Assembly: GCA_000830295.1 (NCBI GenBank) | Contig: CP010425.1 | Location: 753,424 to 777,423, forward strand | DNA from: an archaeon GW2011_AR15 | GTDB lineage: Archaea > Nanobdellota > Nanobdellia > Woesearchaeales > GW2011-AR15 | Reading direction: 5' to 3' | DNA: 24,000 bases | Shown here: positions 9,538 to 20,532 of the stretch, one piece after another | How the letters are laid out: each line of letters begins with the position of its first letter | Numbering within the stretch: position 1 is the first letter of the stretch | The notes under the pieces: model-generated | Database searches by the model: none | Told to the model about the DNA's origin: nothing | The model's input: the letters and a program-made list of their open reading frames with translations, nothing else | Position numbers and translations under genes: made by a program

Positions 9538-9628
9538 TGGGCCCGAGCGGATTCTCACCAATCCTTACCAGCATTGATGGGGCTAGTGTGTTTCCTCGCT
9601 TTGCTCGTCAAGCACACGTTATATAAAA
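9538..9628 (-). repeat. Type A tRNA-trailer insert ending in a 16-nt duplicate of the tRNA-Ile 3' end
   Basis: 9538..9553 is identical to 9629..9644 (tgggcccgagcggatt). The interior folds into two hairpins and is homologous to 16099..16180. Confidence 0.75.
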
Positions 9629-9752
9629 TGGGCCCGAGCGGATTTGAACCGCCGACCACTCGATTGCTGACTGATATGCTATCAGTCGAGCGCTCCATTA
9701 TCCCATCGCCCAGGTACAACCCAGGCGAGTGACCAGACTAAGCCACGGGCCC
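9629..9752 (-). tRNA. tRNA-Ile (anticodon GAU) with two introns (D-loop about 35 nt; canonical 37/38 about 15 nt)
   Basis: Minus strand: GGGCCCG TG GCTT[AGTCTGG..insert..]GAGC G CTCGA CTGATA[GCATATCAGTCAGCA]A TCGAG TGGTC GGCGG TTCAAAT CCGCT CGGGCCC A. All stems pair. No encoded CCA. Confidence 0.8.
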
Positions 9753-10245: not shown

Positions 10246-10349
10246 AAAAAGTGGGACTTCATTGATTCTCATCAAGCCTTTAAGAAAAGCCTTGAGGGAA
10301 ACAAATCCGGTTCTGTTAACAAGTTAACAGAACGACAAAATTAAAAAAG
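10246..10349 (-). repeat. tRNA-Phe trailer insert (type A-related 3' module) ending in a 15/16 duplicate of the tRNA-Phe 3' end plus T-run
   Basis: 10246..10261 matches 10344..10359 with one mismatch. Contains a perfect 11-bp inverted repeat at 10310..10333. The module AAAGGCTTGATGAGAATC aligns with GTAAGGATTGGTGAGAATC of the Ile insert. Confidence 0.7.
10343..10348 (-). terminator. Oligo-T run (T6) 1 nt after the tRNA-Phe discriminator
   Basis: Minus strand: AGGTCCC A C TTTTTT. Archaeal RNA polymerase terminates at oligo-T. Confidence 0.5.
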
Positions 10350-11862: not shown

Positions 11863-11976
11863 TAAGCCTCCGAAGATATCCTCACTTGCGTTCGGAAACC
11901 TTTCGGAGTCTTTAAATTAAGCCTCCGAAGGGTTAAGTCACTTTCGTTCCTGAACCCACGTAGCCTTAATAAATTA
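11863..11976 (-). repeat. Two tandem type B trailer units, each ending in a copy of the tRNA-Thr 3' end
   Basis: 11914..11932 is identical to 11971..11989 (19 nt). 11863..11875 is a third 13-nt copy. Each unit contains a GA-tandem/GNRA hairpin (11936..11951 and 11880..11895). Confidence 0.75.
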
Positions 11977-12077
11977 AGCCTCCGAAGGGAATTGAACCCT
12001 CGACCTGCGGATTGCTCCCAACCTTTTCTTAAAAGGCTGTTACAAGTCCGCCGCAATAGCCGCTATGCTACGGAGGC
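11977..12077 (-). tRNA. tRNA-Thr (anticodon UGU) with a 28-nt canonical intron
   Basis: Minus strand: GCCTCCG TA GCAT AGCGGCTA TTGC G GCGGA CTTGTA[28 nt]A TCCGC AGGTC GAGGG TTCAATT CCCTT CGGAGGC T. The intron contains the hairpin CCTTTT-AAG-AAAAGG. Confidence 0.85.
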
Positions 12078-12132
12078 ATTTTTGCCAAAGTAGCTTTCGA
12101 AAATCCTTGATTTTCGATGTGCTACGGAGGCA
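12078..12132 (-). repeat. Upstream insert beginning with a 13-nt duplicate of the tRNA-Thr 5' end
   Basis: 12120..12132 is identical to 12066..12078 (tgctacggaggca on +). Between the copies is a long hairpin: GTAGC-ACA-TCGAAAATC-AAG-GATTTTCGA-AA-GCTAC. Confidence 0.7.
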
Positions 12133-16098: not shown

Positions 16099-16180
16099 CT
16101 TTCAGGTACGCTTGAGCAAAGCGAAACGTACCTTCTCCGTCAATGCTGAAAAGGATTGGTGCGTAATCCTCCCAACCCCA
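16099..16180 (+). repeat. Type A tRNA-trailer insert ending in a 16-nt duplicate of the tRNA-Pro 3' end
   Basis: 16165..16180 is identical to 16083..16098 (aatcctcccaacccca). Homologous in block order to the Ile insert. Hairpins: GGTACG...CGTACC and GGATT-GGTGCGT-AATCC. Confidence 0.75.
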
Positions 16181-16186: not shown

Positions 16187-16241
16187 CGAGGTATTCAAGG
16201 TTCGGGACCTTGAGGTCTGGGTTCGAATCCCAGGAACCCCA
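16187..16241 (+). pseudogene. 5'-truncated tRNA-Pro(CGG)-like fragment: part of D-loop, anticodon arm, T-arm, 3' acceptor strand
   Basis: CGAGGTATT CAAGG TTCGGGA CCTTG AGGTC CTGGG-type T-arm (TGGGTTCGAATCCCAG) GAACCCC A. Stems are perfect but differ from the neighbouring tRNA-Pro. No 5' acceptor strand (GGGGTTC) or D-stem 5' strand is present upstream. Confidence 0.6.
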
Positions 16242-16518: not shown

Positions 16519-17439
16519 ATGCAGAGAGAAATACTTAAATATGCGCGTAATACACTTCAGCCGATGTTTGAGACGTTTTCAAGGAGTTGGGAGATAACCA
16601 AGCAGACATTCAGGGTTATTAATGCAGACAGGGAGATACTGCTCTATCCAGTTGTATCGTCAATAATCTCTATAATCTTCTTCGTGGTGATGGTTTTTCC
16701 ATTTATAGCTACAGGCCTTGTCTCAGAAATTCTGTCAAGAGACGCAGGTGCCTTTCTGTTCTGGGTAACATTGTTCGGATTTTACCTGGGAGTTTCATTT
16801 GTGGCAACATTCTTCAATGTGGCAACAGTATACTGCGCAAACAAGAGGTTCCACAAAGGAAACCCAACATTCACAGAAGGGCTCAAAGAGGCATTTAAGA
16901 GGATACACCTGATTTTTCTCTGGTCGCTTGTCTCAGCTACTGTAGGGATACTGATAAACAGCCTTGAGAATTCAGCAAAAAAATCAAAAGGAATTAGCAG
17001 GGTAATAATTTCAGCAGTTGCCAGCCTTGTTGGCATGGCGTGGAGCATAGTAACGCTGTTTGTCATACCTGCCATTGTTATAGAAAATGTAGGCCCTGTT
17101 GACGCAATAAAAAGATCGGCCCAGACACTGAAAAAGACATGGGGAGAAAGCCTTATAAGACATTTTGGGCTCGGAGCTGCTCAGGGTATGTTCTCATTTG
17201 CAGGCTTTTTCTTCTTGTTGGCACCTGCAATAGTAAGCCTTGTATTTTTTCAGAGCATCCTTATGTTTGCCGTCCTGATGGCACTCTTCATTATCTATAT
17301 AGTCATAGTAAGCCTGGTGTTCTCAACAGCAAACACAGTCTTCAACACAGCCCTTTTTGTCTATGCCAAGACAGGCAAGATTCCCGGATTCTATTCCAAA
17401 GATACAATGAAGCACGCTTTCAAGGCAGAGAAGAAATAG
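16519..17439 (+). CDS. Polytopic membrane protein of unknown function
   Basis: 306 aa with at least six hydrophobic helices. The N-terminal amphipathic segment FSRSWEITKQTFRVINADREILLYPVVSSI resembles a widespread uncharacterised membrane family. No catalytic motif recognised. Confidence 0.65.
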   Translation: MQREILKYARNTLQPMFETFSRSWEITKQTFRVINADREILLYPVVSSIISIIFFVVMVFPFIATGLVSEILSRDAGAFLFWVTLFGFYLGVSFVATFFNVATVYCANKRFHKGNPTFTEGLKEAFKRIHLIFLWSLVSATVGILINSLENSAKKSKGISRVIISAVASLVGMAWSIVTLFVIPAIVIENVGPVDAIKRSAQTLKKTWGESLIRHFGLGAAQGMFSFAGFFFLLAPAIVSLVFFQSILMFAVLMALFIIYIVIVSLVFSTANTVFNTALFVYAKTGKIPGFYSKDTMKHAFKAEKK

Positions 17440-17443
17440 TAAG

Positions 17444-17451
17444 AAAAAAAA
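17444..17451 (-). terminator. Oligo-T run (T8) directly after the distal tRNA-Arg 3'-end copy
   Basis: Minus strand: GCAGGCTCA TTTTTTTT. The tRNA itself is followed by TAAGCGAAG with no T-run. Confidence 0.55.
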
Positions 17452-17511
17452 TGAGCCTGCGAGGAGAACTCACTTGCGTTCGTGCTCCTCTGGTCTCATT
17501 CGCTTCGCTTA
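17451..17511 (-). repeat. Type B tRNA-trailer insert ending in a 15-nt duplicate of the tRNA-Arg 3' end
   Basis: 17451..17465 is identical to 17511..17525 (atgagcctgcgagga). Hairpin GAGGAG-[CACGAACGCAAGTGAGTT]-CTCCTC; its 3' strand is part of the duplicated segment. Confidence 0.75.
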
Positions 17512-17585
17512 TGAGCCTGCGAGGATTTGAACCCCGGTATTCAGCTTAGAAGGCTGATGTCCTATCCAGGCTGGACGACAGGCTC
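17512..17585 (-). tRNA. tRNA-Arg (anticodon UCU), no intron
   Basis: Minus strand: GAGCCTG TC GTCC AGCCTGGATA GGAC A TCAGC CTTCTAA GCTGA ATAC CGGGG TTCAAAT CCTCG CAGGCTC A. 74 nt. Confidence 0.9.
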
Positions 17586-18741: not shown

Positions 18742-20532
18742 TTACAATTCCTCTTCTTCATTATCAGAGTAATCTCTCTCCTGATCATCTTCACTGCTTC
18801 CTTCCTCTTCTTCATCAAAATTATCAGCTTCGTTGCTCTCCCTTTTCCTTTTCGGCCCGTAATCTTTTTTCAGCTCATCAAGCTCTTCTTTCTTTATTGA
18901 CCTTGTCTTTTCAAGCACAACTCTCAGATGATCCTCCAGCCTTGCCTTCTCCCCTTCATCCAGGGTTAATATTTCCTGCAGTGCCCCGCTGACATGAGGG
19001 AGGTATTTTGAGATATAATCTACTTTTGTAAGTTCCTGATGCAGTCTTCTCTTCTTTCCAAGGTATTTCCCAAGCTCACGCCCAAGCTCCTGCAGCGCCA
19101 GTTTTATCTCCTTTATTATTTCAGGATAATGGGCAATGGCTTCCTTTGCTTCACTTGTAAAAGGGACCCAGACAGAAGCCATGTGGACAACTATAAGGCA
19201 TCCTCCTATCGGGATGCTTCCCTGGGACTGCTTTAAGCCATAAGGCCTCCAGTTTGTTGAGGTTATTGATTTTGTCACAGCACATGCGCCCTGCTGGTAT
19301 AATAGGGGGACTCTGTTTGCGAATCTCATTATCTCTATTGGCTTGTCTTCGGGCATGTTGCCGCCATATGCTATTGCAGCCTCGATAATGAAAGGGTTTC
19401 CCCTGTAAACAGAAGGGGATCTTGATATTGAATGATAGAATTCAGCATTGAGCTCTTTTTTCAGCCCTTTTTCTATAAGCTCCTTTCCGAGAGGAGAAAT
19501 AGAGTCTGTTGGGGGAGCCATTATCTTTGTTTTCTTTATCCCTTCGAGGAGCTTCTCAGCCATTTCCCTGCTTATGTTTCTCGGGGAAGTTGAAGGAAGA
19601 AGAAAAGACTGCTCGCATATCTCTTTTGCAGTTCCAGCTCCGACTCTGCTGAATTCATTTGTGAGAAAGGCATTCAAAGTCCTGTATTCAGTGTTCTCCA
19701 GCATCTTCATAAGTATGCCGAGCTCCACTCCATATGGATGCGGTTTTATCTCCTTAGGCTCTTTTGGCAGTTCTTCTGTTGCCCTTACGAACATAATCTG
19801 GGAATCCTGGGGCGGCTGGTAAATTATTGTGACATGCGGGTTTATTATTGCAGTCTCCCTCAGATACTCGTCAACAGACTGCGCACCTTTCATATAGTCG
19901 CCTTCAAGGTCAATCTCGACCCTTGTTCCATGATCCCTATGCCATTCAACTTCTTTTTCTGAAACTATAAGGGGCTTGTTTTTTGATGTGTCAAGCTTCA
20001 GTTCTATCTCATGTGCGGGGTATTCAGGCCCTATTTTAGAAATTATTTTGGCAGGCCGTCCTGTTGTAAGCTGGCCATACATGACAGATGCGGAGATACC
20101 TATACCCTGCTGGCCTCTGGACTGCTTTAGCCTGTGAAACTTGCTTCCATACAGCAGCTTTGCGAAGATATTTGGGATCTGCTTTCTCACAATTCCAGGG
20201 CCATTGTCCTCCACGGCAATCCTGTACCTGTTCTCGCCCATATTAGTTATTTCCACTACTAATTCGGGAAGTACTTTTGCCTCCTCGCAGGCATCAAGAG
20301 AATTGTCGACCGCCTCTTTTACAGTTGTAAGAAGAGCCTTTTTCCTGTTGTCAAATCCGAGAAGGTGCCTGTTCTTTTCAAAGAATTCTGCTACAGAAAT
20401 CTCCCGTTGTTTTTTTGCAAGCTCAACTGCAACAGGAGCGGCTTTCTCTTTTTGTGCGTTTGCAGCAGCCCGGGATTCTGCTTTGTCGACTCCATTTAGG
20501 TCAGAAGAGCCAAAATCAAGCGTCTTTTGCAT
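18742..20532 (-). CDS. top6B: DNA topoisomerase VI subunit B (GHKL ATPase) with acidic C-terminal tail
   Basis: 596 aa. Bergerat-fold motifs [23 protein letters not shown]. Transducer domain. Tail rich in D/E ([26 protein letters not shown]). A TATA-like TTTAAAA lies 23 nt upstream of the ATG. Confidence 0.95.

What the first reader, a model, noticed from the sequence alone, without database searches (positions are those of the whole stretch)
17451..17511. Type B insert: GA-tandem/GNRA hairpin shared by the Arg and Thr trailers, with covariation
Seen directly. Three units contain the same 16-nt hairpin core.
- Arg: ACGAAC-GCAA-GTGAGT (17468..17483).
- Thr unit C: CCGAAC-GCAA-GTGAGG (11880..11895).
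- Thr unit B: AGGAAC-GAAA-GTGACT (11936..11951).

The fold is a GNRA tetraloop, then C-G and A-U pairs, then tandem A.G/G.A, then a Watson-Crick pair that covaries (C-G in two copies, G-C in the third). The loop changes GCAA to GAAA and so stays GNRA. The 14-mer ctcacttgcgttcg is identical at 11881 and 17469.

In Arg the core is the loop of a GAGGAG/CTCCTC stem. The 3' strand of that stem is the duplicated T-stem of tRNA-Arg, so the insert supplies a new partner strand matched to this particular tRNA.

In Thr unit C an upstream GACTCCGAA (11902..11910) pairs with the duplicated acceptor strand TTCGGAGGC (11866..11874). This gives a self-contained acceptor-stem-like minihelix capped by the GA/GNRA hairpin.

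The Arg insert also carries AAGCGAAGCGAAT, close to the type A core GAGCAAAGCGAAA, which links the two types.

Inference: these look like selected RNA structures rather than decaying spacer DNA.
Basis: partly seen in the sequence, partly recalled or inferred. Interest (0 to 1): 0.7.

Follow-up and report, generated by a model that had tools for sequence, protein, structure and literature searches.

The report
tRNA-end echo hairpins in Woesearchaeota
The hairpin is real: it caps a small, apparently undescribed element that DPANN archaea (Woesearchaeota) carry at the ends of tRNA genes, built from an antisense and a second sense copy of the tRNA's own 3' end, and it appears related to the T-loop introns of the same lineage, whose mode of spread is an open question.

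Summary
**Observation confirmed.** The 16-nt GA-tandem/GNRA core sits exactly where stated. There are 3 copies in 24 kb, all in tRNA trailers and all in tRNA sense.

**Anatomy.** The core is the apical cap (L2) of a larger unit: tRNA 3' end (X) – cap L1 (GAGCRAAGCGA-like) – imperfect antisense copy X' – L2 – perfect second copy of X.

**Distribution.**
- A metagenome scan found about 25 more units behind at least 12 kinds of tRNA. Those whose lineage was checked are Woesearchaeota.
- The two base pairs closing the cap covary (95% paired; 0 of 500 shuffles reach this).

**Signs of a DNA-level origin.**
- Mirror-image units occur at tRNA 5' ends, with the caps on the opposite strand.
- Repeat length varies from 9 to 30 nt, and tandem arrays occur.
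- One unit pair flanks 0.8 kb of cargo.
- The stems show no G·U over A·C bias.

**Link to introns.**
- One of the three sister type A units in this window (A1) meets the bulge-helix-bulge rule of genuine 59/60 T-loop introns, which are common in this lineage.
- Type A shares L1 and the TGAG end with type B.
- Type B itself fails the rule.

**Best reading (about 0.45).** An intron-related duplication/insertion element, co-transcribed with the tRNA and discarded as trailer. The hairpin sequesters the redundant 3' end.

**Main rival (about 0.25).** A functional minihelix-like RNA.

The parts
17512..17585 (-). tRNA-Arg(TCT), intact and contiguous
   Evidence: ARAGORN; Rfam tRNA model 62.6 bits
17511..17525 (-). 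DR1 (X): the last 14 nt of tRNA-Arg (T60 to A73) plus 1 trailer nt, TCCTCGCAGGCTCAT
   Evidence: exact 15-nt direct repeat
17500..17510 (-). L1 cap AAGCGAAGCGA. It has the GA-GC-RAA-GC-GA design and matches the cap of hairpin 1 in type A units
   Evidence: The same motif sits at the same position in L093, L198, L123, L190 and L141
17485..17499 (-). X': imperfect antisense copy of X, ATGAGACCAGAGGAG. It includes the complement of the discriminator and of the first trailer nt
   Evidence: read from the sequence; folds; 10 of 14 positions complementary
17468..17483 (-).
17451..17465 (-). DR2: perfect second copy of the tRNA-Arg 3' end. It forms the 3' strand of the X'-L2-X hairpin
17444..17450 (-). 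Oligo-T run after DR2 (T8 counting the last T of DR2). Probably the tRNA gene's original terminator, shared with the convergent DUF6159 gene that ends at 17439
11977..12077 (-). tRNA-Thr(TGT) with a canonical intron
11918..11976 (-). Thr unit B: X' at 11953-11970, L2 core at 11936-11951, repeat copy CTTCGGAGGCTTA at 11918-11930
11863..11917 (-). Thr unit C: X' at 11899-11913, L2 core at 11880-11895, last repeat copy at 11863-11875, then TTTT
12079..12132 (-). Mirror-image unit on the 5' side of tRNA-Thr: distal copy of the tRNA 5' end TGCCTCCGTAGCA (12120-12132), a hairpin (12097-12117), and an imperfect antisense copy GCTACTTTGGCA (12083-12094)
   Evidence: a homologous unit occurs in L007, where the repeat matches that species' own tRNA
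9538..9628 (-). Sister type A unit A1, behind the tRNA at 9629-9752: hairpin 1 with cap GAGCAAAGCGA (9596-9606), hairpin 2, [TGAG][AAT], and DR2 AATCCGCTCGGGCCCA (9538-9553). It meets the 59/60 bulge-helix-bulge rule
16099..16180 (+). Sister type A unit A2, behind tRNA-Pro(CGG): cap at 16114-16124, DR2 at 16165-16180
10251..10348 (-). Degenerate type A unit behind tRNA-Ile. Its right end CTTGATGAG|AATC matches type A, and its DR2 has decayed (14 of 17 identical)

Best explanation
**What it is (shown).** The 61-nt stretch is one copy of a family of 'echo units' that Woesearchaeota (DPANN archaea) carry at the ends of tRNA genes. The order of parts is:
1. The genuine tRNA 3' end (X), running from about position 58-61 to the discriminator.
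2. A short cap, L1.
3. An imperfect antisense copy of X (X').
5. A spacer of 3-4 nt.
6. A perfect second copy of X.

X', L2 and the second X fold into a long imperfect hairpin that resembles an acceptor/T-stem minihelix. X' and the second X are specific to each tRNA. The caps are shared between units.

**How it arises (inferred).** The units come from a DNA-level duplication or insertion process that acts outward from both ends of tRNA genes. They are evolutionary kin of the T-loop (59/60) bulge-helix-bulge introns that are abundant in the same lineage. Because a complete tRNA is kept upstream, the unit does no harm.

**What happens to it (inferred).** It is co-transcribed with the tRNA and removed as 3' trailer by tRNase Z, or as spacer in tRNA clusters.

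**What the hairpin does (inferred).** X' and the very stable cap lock the redundant 3' end into a self-contained stem, so that it does not compete with the true acceptor stem. The cap sequence is a generic, very stable hairpin cap rather than a specific protein-recognition site.
For: **Anatomy and recurrence.**
- 5 of the 7 tRNAs in the window carry a unit.
- About 25 further type B units lie behind tRNAs called as Pro, Arg, Thr, His, Ser, Phe, Ala, Asn, Val, Lys, Leu, Gly and Ile. Some ARAGORN calls are uncertain.
- Lineage: the window and L190 are both Woesearchaeota.
- The cap-closing pairs covary: CG 13, AU 6, UA 2, GC 1 at one pair, and CG 16, GC 6, UA 1 at the other. 95% are paired, 0 of 500 shuffles reach this, and slid controls give 13-32%.

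**Signs of a DNA-level process.**
- 5'-flank units are mirror images with the GA caps on the antisense strand: L042, L045, L078, L033 and L069.
- Repeat length varies from 9 to 30 nt.
- Tandem arrays occur in the window Thr locus, L176, L130, L180 and L170.
- Identical units flank 0.8 kb of cargo in L093, and a 13-nt tRNA-Cys repeat flanks 1.2 kb in L006.
- L100 carries a nested hairpin insertion.
- Transition-type mispairs in the X':X stems split evenly: 16 G·T against 17 A·C-type.
- DR2 can decay, as in the Ile unit, L130, L150 and L198.

**Kinship with introns.**
- One scanner, with one set of criteria, finds 8 true 59/60 T-loop introns in related loci and also the window's type A unit A1, which reads [TTCA][AAT]...[TGAG][AAT].
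- The T-loop intron of L012 shares TTGACGA(G)CAAAGC(G)AGG with A1 (sequence; my alignment by eye).
- Type A and type B share the L1 cap and the ...GTGAG + 3-4 nt + DR2 end.

**Generic cap.** The same 12-mer caps long hairpins after bacterial tRNAs: 8 of 78 have at least 5 flanking pairs, against 0.58 expected.

**Co-transcription.** No run of 4 or more T follows DR1 in any of 21 units.

**Literature.** The mechanism of archaeal tRNA intron transposition is unknown and thought to be DNA-level (PMC4090602). A 59/60 hBH intron and heavily disrupted tRNA genes are reported in DPANN (PMC5829648).
Against: - No enzyme, donor molecule or autonomous element was found, so the generating mechanism is unknown.
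- DR2 is nearly perfect (18 of 252 positions differ), whereas X' is not (69 of 252). A single simultaneous copying event followed by neutral decay does not predict this. It requires either homogenisation of the direct repeats or an X' that pre-exists the insertion.
- L2 and its flanks are conserved between AT-rich and GC-rich Woesearchaeota, and they sit at orthologous tRNAs. Examples are tRNA-Arg beside Topo VI-A in the window and L100, and tRNA-Pro beside rpl37ae in L123 and L141. This fits purifying selection on a function as well as it fits my reading.
- Sense-strand hairpins are more stable than antisense ones in 18 of 22 units.
- Type B itself fails the bulge-helix-bulge test.
- The similarity between the L012 intron and A1 is short.
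- There are no expression data.
- No filled-versus-empty polymorphism was seen in the source population: 24 contigs are identical.
Confidence: 0.45

Rival explanations
1. A functional structured RNA. The trailer hairpin is a selected minihelix mimic: acceptor/T-like stem, discriminator and GA/GNRA cap. It would act at RNA level, for example as a processing or insulation signal, as a substrate or decoy for tRNase Z, RNase P or the CCA-adding enzyme, or as a binding site for an L7Ae-type protein.
For: - The cap-closing pairs covary.
- Hairpin z-scores run from -3 to -4.7.
- All type B caps lie in tRNA sense, and the sense fold is the more stable in 18 of 22 units.
- L2 and its flanks are conserved in AT-rich and GC-rich Woesearchaeota and at orthologous tRNAs.
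- X' tracks the acceptor sequence of each tRNA, ATGAG... in the window against ACGTC... in L134.
- DR2 is kept identical to the tRNA end.
Against: - G·U pairs are not favoured over A·C in the stems (16 v 17).
- 5'-flank units carry the caps on the antisense strand, so the sense leader would read UC...UC.
- Most tRNAs in related genomes lack units: 5 of about 70 T-arms have one.
- tRNA-Ala is empty in the window but filled in L174.
- DR2 decays in several units.
- A T-run follows DR2 in only 5 of 21 units, so a terminator role is not general.
- No Rfam family matches the units.
- There is no K-turn bulge.
Confidence: 0.25
2. A relaxed (hBH or BHL) splicing-endonuclease intron at T-loop position 59/60. 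The true 3' exon would be DR2. The stretch DR1-L1-X'-L2 would be excised, with TGAG of L2 pairing to T-loop 54-57. The tRNA could then mature by either route.
For: - TGAG or TGAN lies upstream of the copy of the T-stem 3' strand in all 23 units and can pair with TTCA/TTCG.
- Sister unit A1 fits the canonical motif, and genuine 59/60 introns are common in this lineage.
- The minimum-free-energy fold of tRNA-Arg plus trailer pairs the 5' acceptor strand with DR2.
- DPANN splicing endonucleases cleave relaxed motifs (PMC5829648).
- DR2 is maintained.
Against: - The spacer between TGAG and the T-stem copy is 4 nt rather than 3 in 13 of 23 units. Splicing by the 59/60 rule would therefore give an 8-nt T-loop or change nt 60.
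- The inner helix h' is about 1 bp, because the 5' half of L2 intervenes.
- The nucleotide after GTGA covaries with the nucleotide before GAAC rather than staying G or A opposite the invariant T54. This supports the hairpin and not the central helix H.
- A contiguous tRNA makes splicing unnecessary.
Confidence: 0.12
3. Scars or recombination sites of integrative elements. The direct repeats would be attL/attR cores of elements that integrated at the tRNA T-loop to 3' end. The 45-nt insert would be what remains after deletion, or a folded attC- or attP-like site for small cassettes.
For: - The repeats start in the T-loop or T-stem and run through the tRNA 3' end. This matches the T-loop class of integrase sites, a point that rests on my own knowledge of Williams 2002.
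- L093 has two identical units flanking an 0.8-kb two-gene cargo, and L006 has a 13-nt repeat flanking a 1.2-kb single-gene insert.
- A displaced 3' fragment of tRNA-Pro lies at 16196-16241.
- tRNA fragments produced by integration are well known in archaea (PMC9897764, PMC3293823).
Against: - No integrase or other mobile-element gene lies in or near the window.
- The inserts are only 40-100 nt, yet they share conserved caps across different tRNAs and genomes. Random deletion remnants would not.
- An inverted copy spanning the whole repeat is not att-core architecture.
- Mirror-image units occur on the 5' side.
- The viral-contig scans found nothing: no type A match, and the five anchored type B matches look like chance.
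- Cargo cases are rare: 2 among all the tRNA T-arms I scanned.
Confidence: 0.1

Closest known systems
Archaeal bulge-helix-bulge tRNA introns at the non-canonical T-loop position 59/60 (ARMAN-2 tRNA-Cys hBH intron, PMC5829648; 'transposed' introns of Thermoproteales, Fujishima 2010 as cited in PMC4090602)
   Same: - It occupies the T-loop to 3' end boundary of tRNA genes in a lineage rich in such introns.
- Sister type A unit A1 meets the motif.
- It shares the L1 cap and the TGAG end.
- Related sequences sit in different tRNAs.
   Different: - A complete tRNA precedes the element, so the 3' exon is duplicated.
- Type B has a 4-nt spacer and no inner helix h'.
- Its TGAG is locked into a covarying hairpin.
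- It contains a full antisense copy of the exon.
Duplication of tRNA 3' ends at attL/attR by integrating archaeal plasmids and viruses (PMC9897764, PMC3293823)
   Same: - Direct repeat of the tRNA 3' part, starting in the T-arm.
- An intact tRNA is retained.
- Rare cargo-bearing versions exist (L093, L006).
   Different: - The insert is 40-100 nt with no genes.
- The caps are conserved.
- There is an inverted copy of the repeat.
- Units also occur at 5' ends.
- No integrase is present.
Casposon target-site duplications at tRNA 3' ends (PMC5137440, PMC4779613)
   Same: - Duplication of about 14-15 bp of a tRNA 3' end.
- Tandem repeat-insert-repeat arrays.
   Different: - No terminal inverted repeats, Cas1 or PolB.
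- Repeat length varies from 9 to 30 nt.
- The insert carries the complement of the target.
K-turn and K-loop (L7Ae) motifs, and box C'/D' of archaeal sRNAs
   Same: - Two GA dinucleotides flank a short loop and form tandem sheared G·A pairs.
- CCGA...UGAGGA resembles CUGA...UGAUGA.
   Different: - No 3-nt bulge.
- The U·U position is a covarying Watson-Crick pair.
- No terminal C and D boxes.
- The would-be guide is sequestered by its own target copy.
- No Rfam match.
GNRA-capped intrinsic terminator or REP-like hairpins
   Same: - The identical GAAC-GNRA-GTGA 12-mer caps long hairpins after bacterial tRNAs.
- GA-capped hairpins unrelated to tRNAs occur in Woesearchaeota loci L046 and L073.
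   Different: - Here the stem is templated by the tRNA end.
- A T-run follows DR2 in only 5 of 21 units.
- The consensus terminator scan does not flag the units.

Membership tests
BHB (hBHBh') tRNA intron at 59/60 | A 4-bp central helix between T-loop positions 54-57 and 4 nt near the 3' end of the element | tested here: inconclusive
   TGAG or TGAN can pair with TTCA/TTCG in all 23 units. However, its fourth nucleotide covaries with the cap's own 5' side and not with the invariant T54.
BHB (hBHBh') tRNA intron at 59/60 | Two 3-nt bulges flanking the central helix, plus an inner helix h' | tested here: not met
   In type B the spacer is 4 nt in 13 of 23 units and the inner helix is about 1 bp. 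Type A unit A1 does meet this feature: [TTCA][AAT]...[TGAG][AAT]CCGCT.
BHB (hBHBh') tRNA intron at 59/60 | The mature tRNA sequence is interrupted in the gene | tested here: not met
   A contiguous tRNA-Arg scores 62.6 bits and a contiguous tRNA-Thr 54.9 bits upstream of the units.
K-turn (L7Ae-binding) | Tandem sheared G·A pairs next to a 3-nt bulge and a canonical stem | tested here: not met
   The sequence allows tandem G·A, but the helix continues directly into covarying Watson-Crick pairs with no bulge.
K-turn (L7Ae-binding) | Binding by L7Ae | not testable with these tools
   This needs a gel-shift assay or a structure.
Box C/D sRNA | C (RUGAUGA) and D (CUGA) boxes with a free guide; a match to known models | tested here: not met
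   No C/D family matches the units even at E<=10. No D box follows DR2 (contexts).
Integrase att-site duplication at a tRNA gene | Direct repeat of the tRNA 3' part flanking an element that encodes, or once encoded, an integrase | tested here: not met
   The repeat is present. The insert is only 45 nt, and there is no integrase in the window or in the 10-kb flanks.
Transposon / MITE / casposon | Fixed-length target-site duplication and terminal inverted repeats | tested here: not met
   Repeat length is 9-30 nt. The insert ends (GAGC... and ...GGATA) are not inverted repeats, as read from the sequence.
Intrinsic-terminator-like hairpin | G+C-rich hairpin immediately followed by a T-run | tested here: inconclusive
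   The Arg unit and Thr unit C end in T-runs. Across units, only 5 of 21 have a run of 4 or more T after DR2. The consensus scan does not call the units.
tRNA-like minihelix | A stem of about 12 bp whose 3' strand is the T-stem plus acceptor 3' strand, ending in the discriminator | tested here: met
   The 3' strand is an exact copy of positions about 61-73, and the 5' strand is 65-85% complementary. Whether any enzyme treats it as a minihelix was not tested.

The most novel reading that the evidence does not exclude
Echo units would be the DNA-level footprints of how archaeal bulge-helix-bulge introns are born and move. In this reading, a small hairpin element inserts at the T-loop to 3' end, or at the 5' end, of a tRNA gene and duplicates the flanking exon. 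It first exists as a harmless trailer (type B and decayed type A). It becomes a true 59/60 intron once the upstream exon copy is lost or once the bulge-helix-bulge motif forms (type A unit A1, and the intron in L012). This would be a previously unrecognised class of tRNA-end-templated mobile element, and a directly testable mechanism for intron gain.
Probability: 0.25. Interest if true: 0.85.

Novelty: new variant of a known kind. Interest (0 to 1): 0.65.

Why it matters
- **An open question becomes testable.** How archaeal tRNA introns are gained and 'transposed' is unresolved, and the mechanism is stated to be unknown (PMC4090602). One lineage here shows genuine 59/60 introns, intron-like units that still carry a duplicated exon, and trailer-only derivatives side by side. 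That series can be tested with metatranscriptomes and with recombinant EndA and tRNase Z.
- **Annotation.** These units duplicate tRNA ends, create tandem arrays, and can mislead tRNA finders. ARAGORN missed or mis-called several of these genes.
- **If the RNA is functional.** It would be a new class of tRNA-matched minihelix RNA in DPANN archaea.

Tried and rejected
- **Known RNA families.** Rfam found only tRNAs at gathering thresholds, and nothing at the units at E<=10.
- **Viral contigs.** Type A had no match. The T-loop-anchored type B pattern gave 5 matches that look like chance: phage tRNA followed by a ribosome-binding site, with no repeat.
- **Strain polymorphism.** The 5 contigs I retrieved and compared with the same Topo VI-A protein match the window at 99.97-100%, with no insert polymorphism; 19 more places reported as similar were not shown.
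- **Close relatives.** The nearest genomes are only about 75% identical in DNA, and most lack the tRNA-Arg beside Topo VI-A. The only syntenic orthologue found is L100.
- **Canonical bulge-helix-bulge intron for type B.** Rejected.
- **K-turn and box C/D.** No 3-nt bulge, no D box, no Rfam match.
- **General terminator role.** Weak.
- **X' derived from the tRNA's own 5' strands.** Rejected, because X' includes the complement of trailer nucleotides, for example ATTAA opposite TTAAT in Thr unit B (read from the sequence).
- **Primer-binding-site idea.** Rejected, because X' has no TGG that would pair with CCA.
- **Single fold-back copying followed by neutral decay.** Does not fit a perfect DR2 alongside an imperfect X'.
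- **MFE folding as a bulge-helix-bulge test.** Uninformative, because it does not show the motif even for the true L012 intron.
- **Cargo genes in L093.** Pfam gave nothing useful.
Full report

Yes. On the minus strand the three cores are ACGAACGCAAGTGAGT (17468-17483), CCGAACGCAAGTGAGG (11880-11895) and AGGAACGAAAGTGACT (11936-11951). The 14-mer shared by the Arg and Thr-C copies is exact.

GAACGNRAGTGA with up to one mismatch occurs three times in the window, always exactly, against 0.41 expected from shuffles. All three copies lie just downstream of tRNA genes, in tRNA sense. There are none in 1.2 Mb of related loci.

The Arg trailer folds at -22.8 kcal/mol (z = -3.2), and the two Thr units together at -40.9 kcal/mol (z = -4.7).

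**2. Setting**

The window is archaeal. Rfam finds seven tRNAs, four of them with introns. The flanking genes are housekeeping: topoisomerase VI A and B, ribosomal proteins, peptide deformylase.

Relatives of the Topo VI-A gene are labelled Woesearchaeota or Nanoarchaeota. Identical contigs come from Rifle groundwater metagenomes.

**3. What the core belongs to**

The core is the tip of a larger, regular unit. For tRNA-Arg the order is:

| Part | Sequence | Coordinates |
|---|---|---|
| tRNA 3' end (DR1) | TCCTCGCAGGCTCAT | 17511-17525 |
| L1 cap | AAGCGAAGCGA | 17500-17510 |
| X', imperfect antisense copy of the repeat | ATGAGACCAGAGGAG | 17485-17499 |
| L2, the GA/GNRA core | ACGAACGCAAGTGAGT | 17468-17483 |
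| Perfect second copy (DR2) | TCCTCGCAGGCTCAT | 17451-17465 |
| Oligo-T run | | 17444-17450 |

- X' includes the complement of the discriminator and of the first trailer base.
- tRNA-Thr carries two such units in tandem. It also has a mirror-image unit on its 5' side (12079-12132).
- Three other tRNAs in the window carry the sister 'type A' unit. It has two hairpins, the first capped by GAGCAAAGCGA, followed by a repeat of the tRNA 3' end.
- In all, 5 of the 7 tRNAs here have a duplicated end. Among the 80 related loci, 5 of about 70 T-arms do.

**4. A larger sample**

One metagenome scan used a T-loop, a 28-58 nt gap and then GAACGNRAGTGA. It returned 115 loci. About 25 are genuine units with the same architecture, lying behind at least 12 kinds of tRNA. 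The rest are bacterial tRNAs without a repeat.

- One GC-rich carrier, L190, is also a Woesearchaeote: its RpoB'' is 86% identical to a protein named as Woesearchaeota.
- L100 is a syntenic orthologue of this very locus. It has Topo VI-A (75% aa identity), then tRNA-Arg, then a type B unit whose X and X' match its own tRNA.

**5. The covariation claim**

On 25 units the two pairs that close the cap covary.

| Pair | Composition |
|---|---|
| Outer closing pair | CG 13, AU 6, UA 2, GC 1, other 3 |
| Inner closing pair | CG 16, GC 6, UA 1, other 2 |

Overall 95% of these pairs are standard pairs. None of 500 shuffles reaches this, and partners slid by 1-3 columns give 13-32%. These positions were not fixed by my search pattern. 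The GNRA loop and the tandem GA were fixed, so their conservation is untested.

**6. RNA-level selection or DNA-level origin?**

Several results point to the DNA level.

- In the long X':X stems, transition-type mispairs split evenly: 16 G·T against 17 A·C-type. Selection on the sense RNA should favour G·U.
- The mirror-image units at tRNA 5' ends carry the GA caps on the antisense strand: L042 TAGCAAAGCGA, L045 and L078 GAGCGAAGCGA/GAGCGAAGTGA, and L033 and L069.
- Repeat length ranges from 9 to 30 nt, and tandem arrays of identical units occur.
- In L093 two identical units flank 0.8 kb with two small genes. In L006 a 13-nt tRNA-Cys repeat flanks a 1.2-kb single-gene insert.
- DR2 has decayed in some units, including the Ile unit, L130, L150 and L198.

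Other results point the opposite way.

- DR2 is almost always perfect (18 of 252 positions differ), while X' is not (69 of 252). X' mismatches cluster in the middle of the stem.
- The sense hairpin is more stable than the antisense one in 18 of 22 units.

The cap itself looks generic. The identical 12-mer caps long hairpins after unrelated bacterial tRNAs: 8 of 78 have at least 5 flanking pairs, against 0.58 expected. GA-capped hairpins also occur away from tRNAs in Woesearchaeota loci L046 and L073. There are 20 such caps in total against 4.2 in shuffles, and 5 of the 20 lie within 200 nt of a T-loop, a zone that covers 4% of the sequence.

**7. The intron connection**

Related Woesearchaeota have many true introns in the T-loop at position 59/60. 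A scanner looked for this arrangement:
- the T-stem 5' strand, then TTCR, then 3 nt;
- further downstream, 4 nt complementary to positions 54-57, then 3 nt, then the T-stem 3' strand and the acceptor strand.

It finds eight such introns (L021, L027, L034, L041, L067, L070, L072, L078). With the same criteria it also finds the window's type A unit A1: [TTCA][AAT]...[TGAG][AAT]CCGCT.

So 'tRNA + A1 + repeat' can equally be read as a tRNA whose 59/60 intron begins with a full copy of its 3' exon. Splicing would give the same tRNA as the contiguous copy.

Further links:
- The T-loop intron of tRNA-Arg in L012 shares TTGACGA(G)CAAAGC(G)AGG with A1. The stretch is short, so this is suggestive only.
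- Type B shares the L1 cap and the ...GTGAG + 3-4 nt + DR2 end with type A.

Type B nevertheless fails the rule.
- Its spacer is 4 nt in 13 of 23 units.
- It lacks the inner helix.
- The base after GTGA covaries with the base before GAAC, rather than staying complementary to T54.

Reviews state that the mechanism of archaeal intron transposition is unknown and presumed to be DNA-level (PMC4090602). A 59/60 hBH intron and heavy tRNA gene disruption are documented for DPANN (PMC5829648).

**8. Other known families**

- Rfam has no match for the units, even at E<=10.
- There is no K-turn bulge, and there is no box D.
- There are no terminal inverted repeats and no fixed-length target duplication.
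- No integrase lies nearby.
- No type A match occurs in viral contigs, and the five anchored type B matches there look like chance.
- A T-run follows DR2 in only 5 of 21 units, and some units sit between tRNAs of a cluster, so a terminator role is not general.

**9. Best explanation and rivals**

I favour the following, at about 0.45. The unit is a tRNA-end 'echo' element of Woesearchaeota, generated at the DNA level and related to T-loop introns. It is tolerated because the tRNA stays intact. It is co-transcribed and cut off as trailer. The GA/GNRA-capped hairpin keeps the redundant 3' end and its antisense locked together.

| Rival | Confidence |
|---|---|
| A functional minihelix-like RNA | 0.25 |
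| A relaxed bulge-helix-bulge intron that uses DR2 | 0.12 |
| att or cassette recombination scars | 0.10 |

Chance, or plain decaying spacer, is excluded.

**10. Limits**

- There are no expression data.
- No generating enzyme was found.
- The 12-mer was fixed by my search.
- tRNA identities from ARAGORN are uncertain for some intron-rich genes.
- I found no description of these units in the searchable literature. That library is incomplete, so this is not proof of novelty.

Noticed in passing
window 16196-16241 (+): A 46-nt 3' fragment (anticodon stem to discriminator) of a different tRNA-Pro(CGG) lies between the type A unit of tRNA-Pro and tRNA-Ala. Its T-stem 3' and acceptor end (CCCAGGAACCCCA) resembles that of the L174 tRNA-Pro (CCCAGGGACCCCA). 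This is the classic signature of a displaced tRNA 3' part after integration or gene replacement.
   Followed up: partly
window 12079-12132 (-); L007 about 19770-19823: The 5' side of tRNA-Thr carries a mirror-image unit: a distal copy of the tRNA 5' end, a hairpin, and an imperfect antisense copy. A homologous unit sits at the orthologous tRNA-Thr of L007, and in each species the repeat matches that species' own tRNA (GTAGCA v GTGGCT).
   Followed up: partly
window 9538-9644 (-): Type A unit A1 forms a textbook hBHBh' motif with the T-arm: T54-A57 pairs with TGAG, and both bulges are AAT. The tRNA could therefore mature either by 3' trimming or by splicing at 59/60.
   Followed up: yes
L021, L041, L078 (T-loop introns): The 59/60 introns of three tRNAs with different acceptor stems share AT(T/C)CC(G/A)(A/G)AGGGAGA...AAA(T/C)CCC. 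This suggests intron transposition among tRNAs within Woesearchaeota, as reported for Thermoproteales.
   Followed up: no
L012 3530-3760: tRNA-Arg(TCT) beside Topo VI-A appears to carry at least one long insertion in the D-arm region, in addition to the T-loop intron whose sequence resembles type A hairpin 1.
   Followed up: partly
L093 7930-8840; L006 14270-15495: Small cargo is flanked by repeats of a tRNA end. L093 has 0.8 kb with two small ORFs between two identical type B units, one ORF with an AbrB/SpoVT-like C-terminus by eye. L006 has 1.2 kb with one putative secreted protein between 13-nt repeats of the tRNA-Cys 3' end.
   Followed up: partly
L046 about 637 and 19102 (-); L073 about 8632 (-): A dispersed hairpin CCCTCGC-cap-GCGAG(C) is not next to any tRNA. 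It occurs with either cap type (GAGCAAAGCGA or GAACGTAGTGA) and looks like a REP-like element of Woesearchaeota.
   Followed up: no
This points to convergent use of a very stable cap.
   Followed up: partly
L100 1809-1870: A simple hairpin (CACAGACTC...GAGTCTGTG) is inserted inside a type B unit. The L2 3' half is duplicated on both sides (GAACGCAAGTGAAGATA and GAACAAAGTGAAGATA), so the insertion-with-duplication process also acts on the unit itself.
   Followed up: no
L083, L084 (ends correspond to window 17647): Two independent assemblies of the same organism break 4 nt after the Topo VI-A stop codon, about 60 nt before tRNA-Arg. This may reflect assembly trouble or strain heterogeneity at the repeat-bearing tRNA locus.
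   Followed up: no
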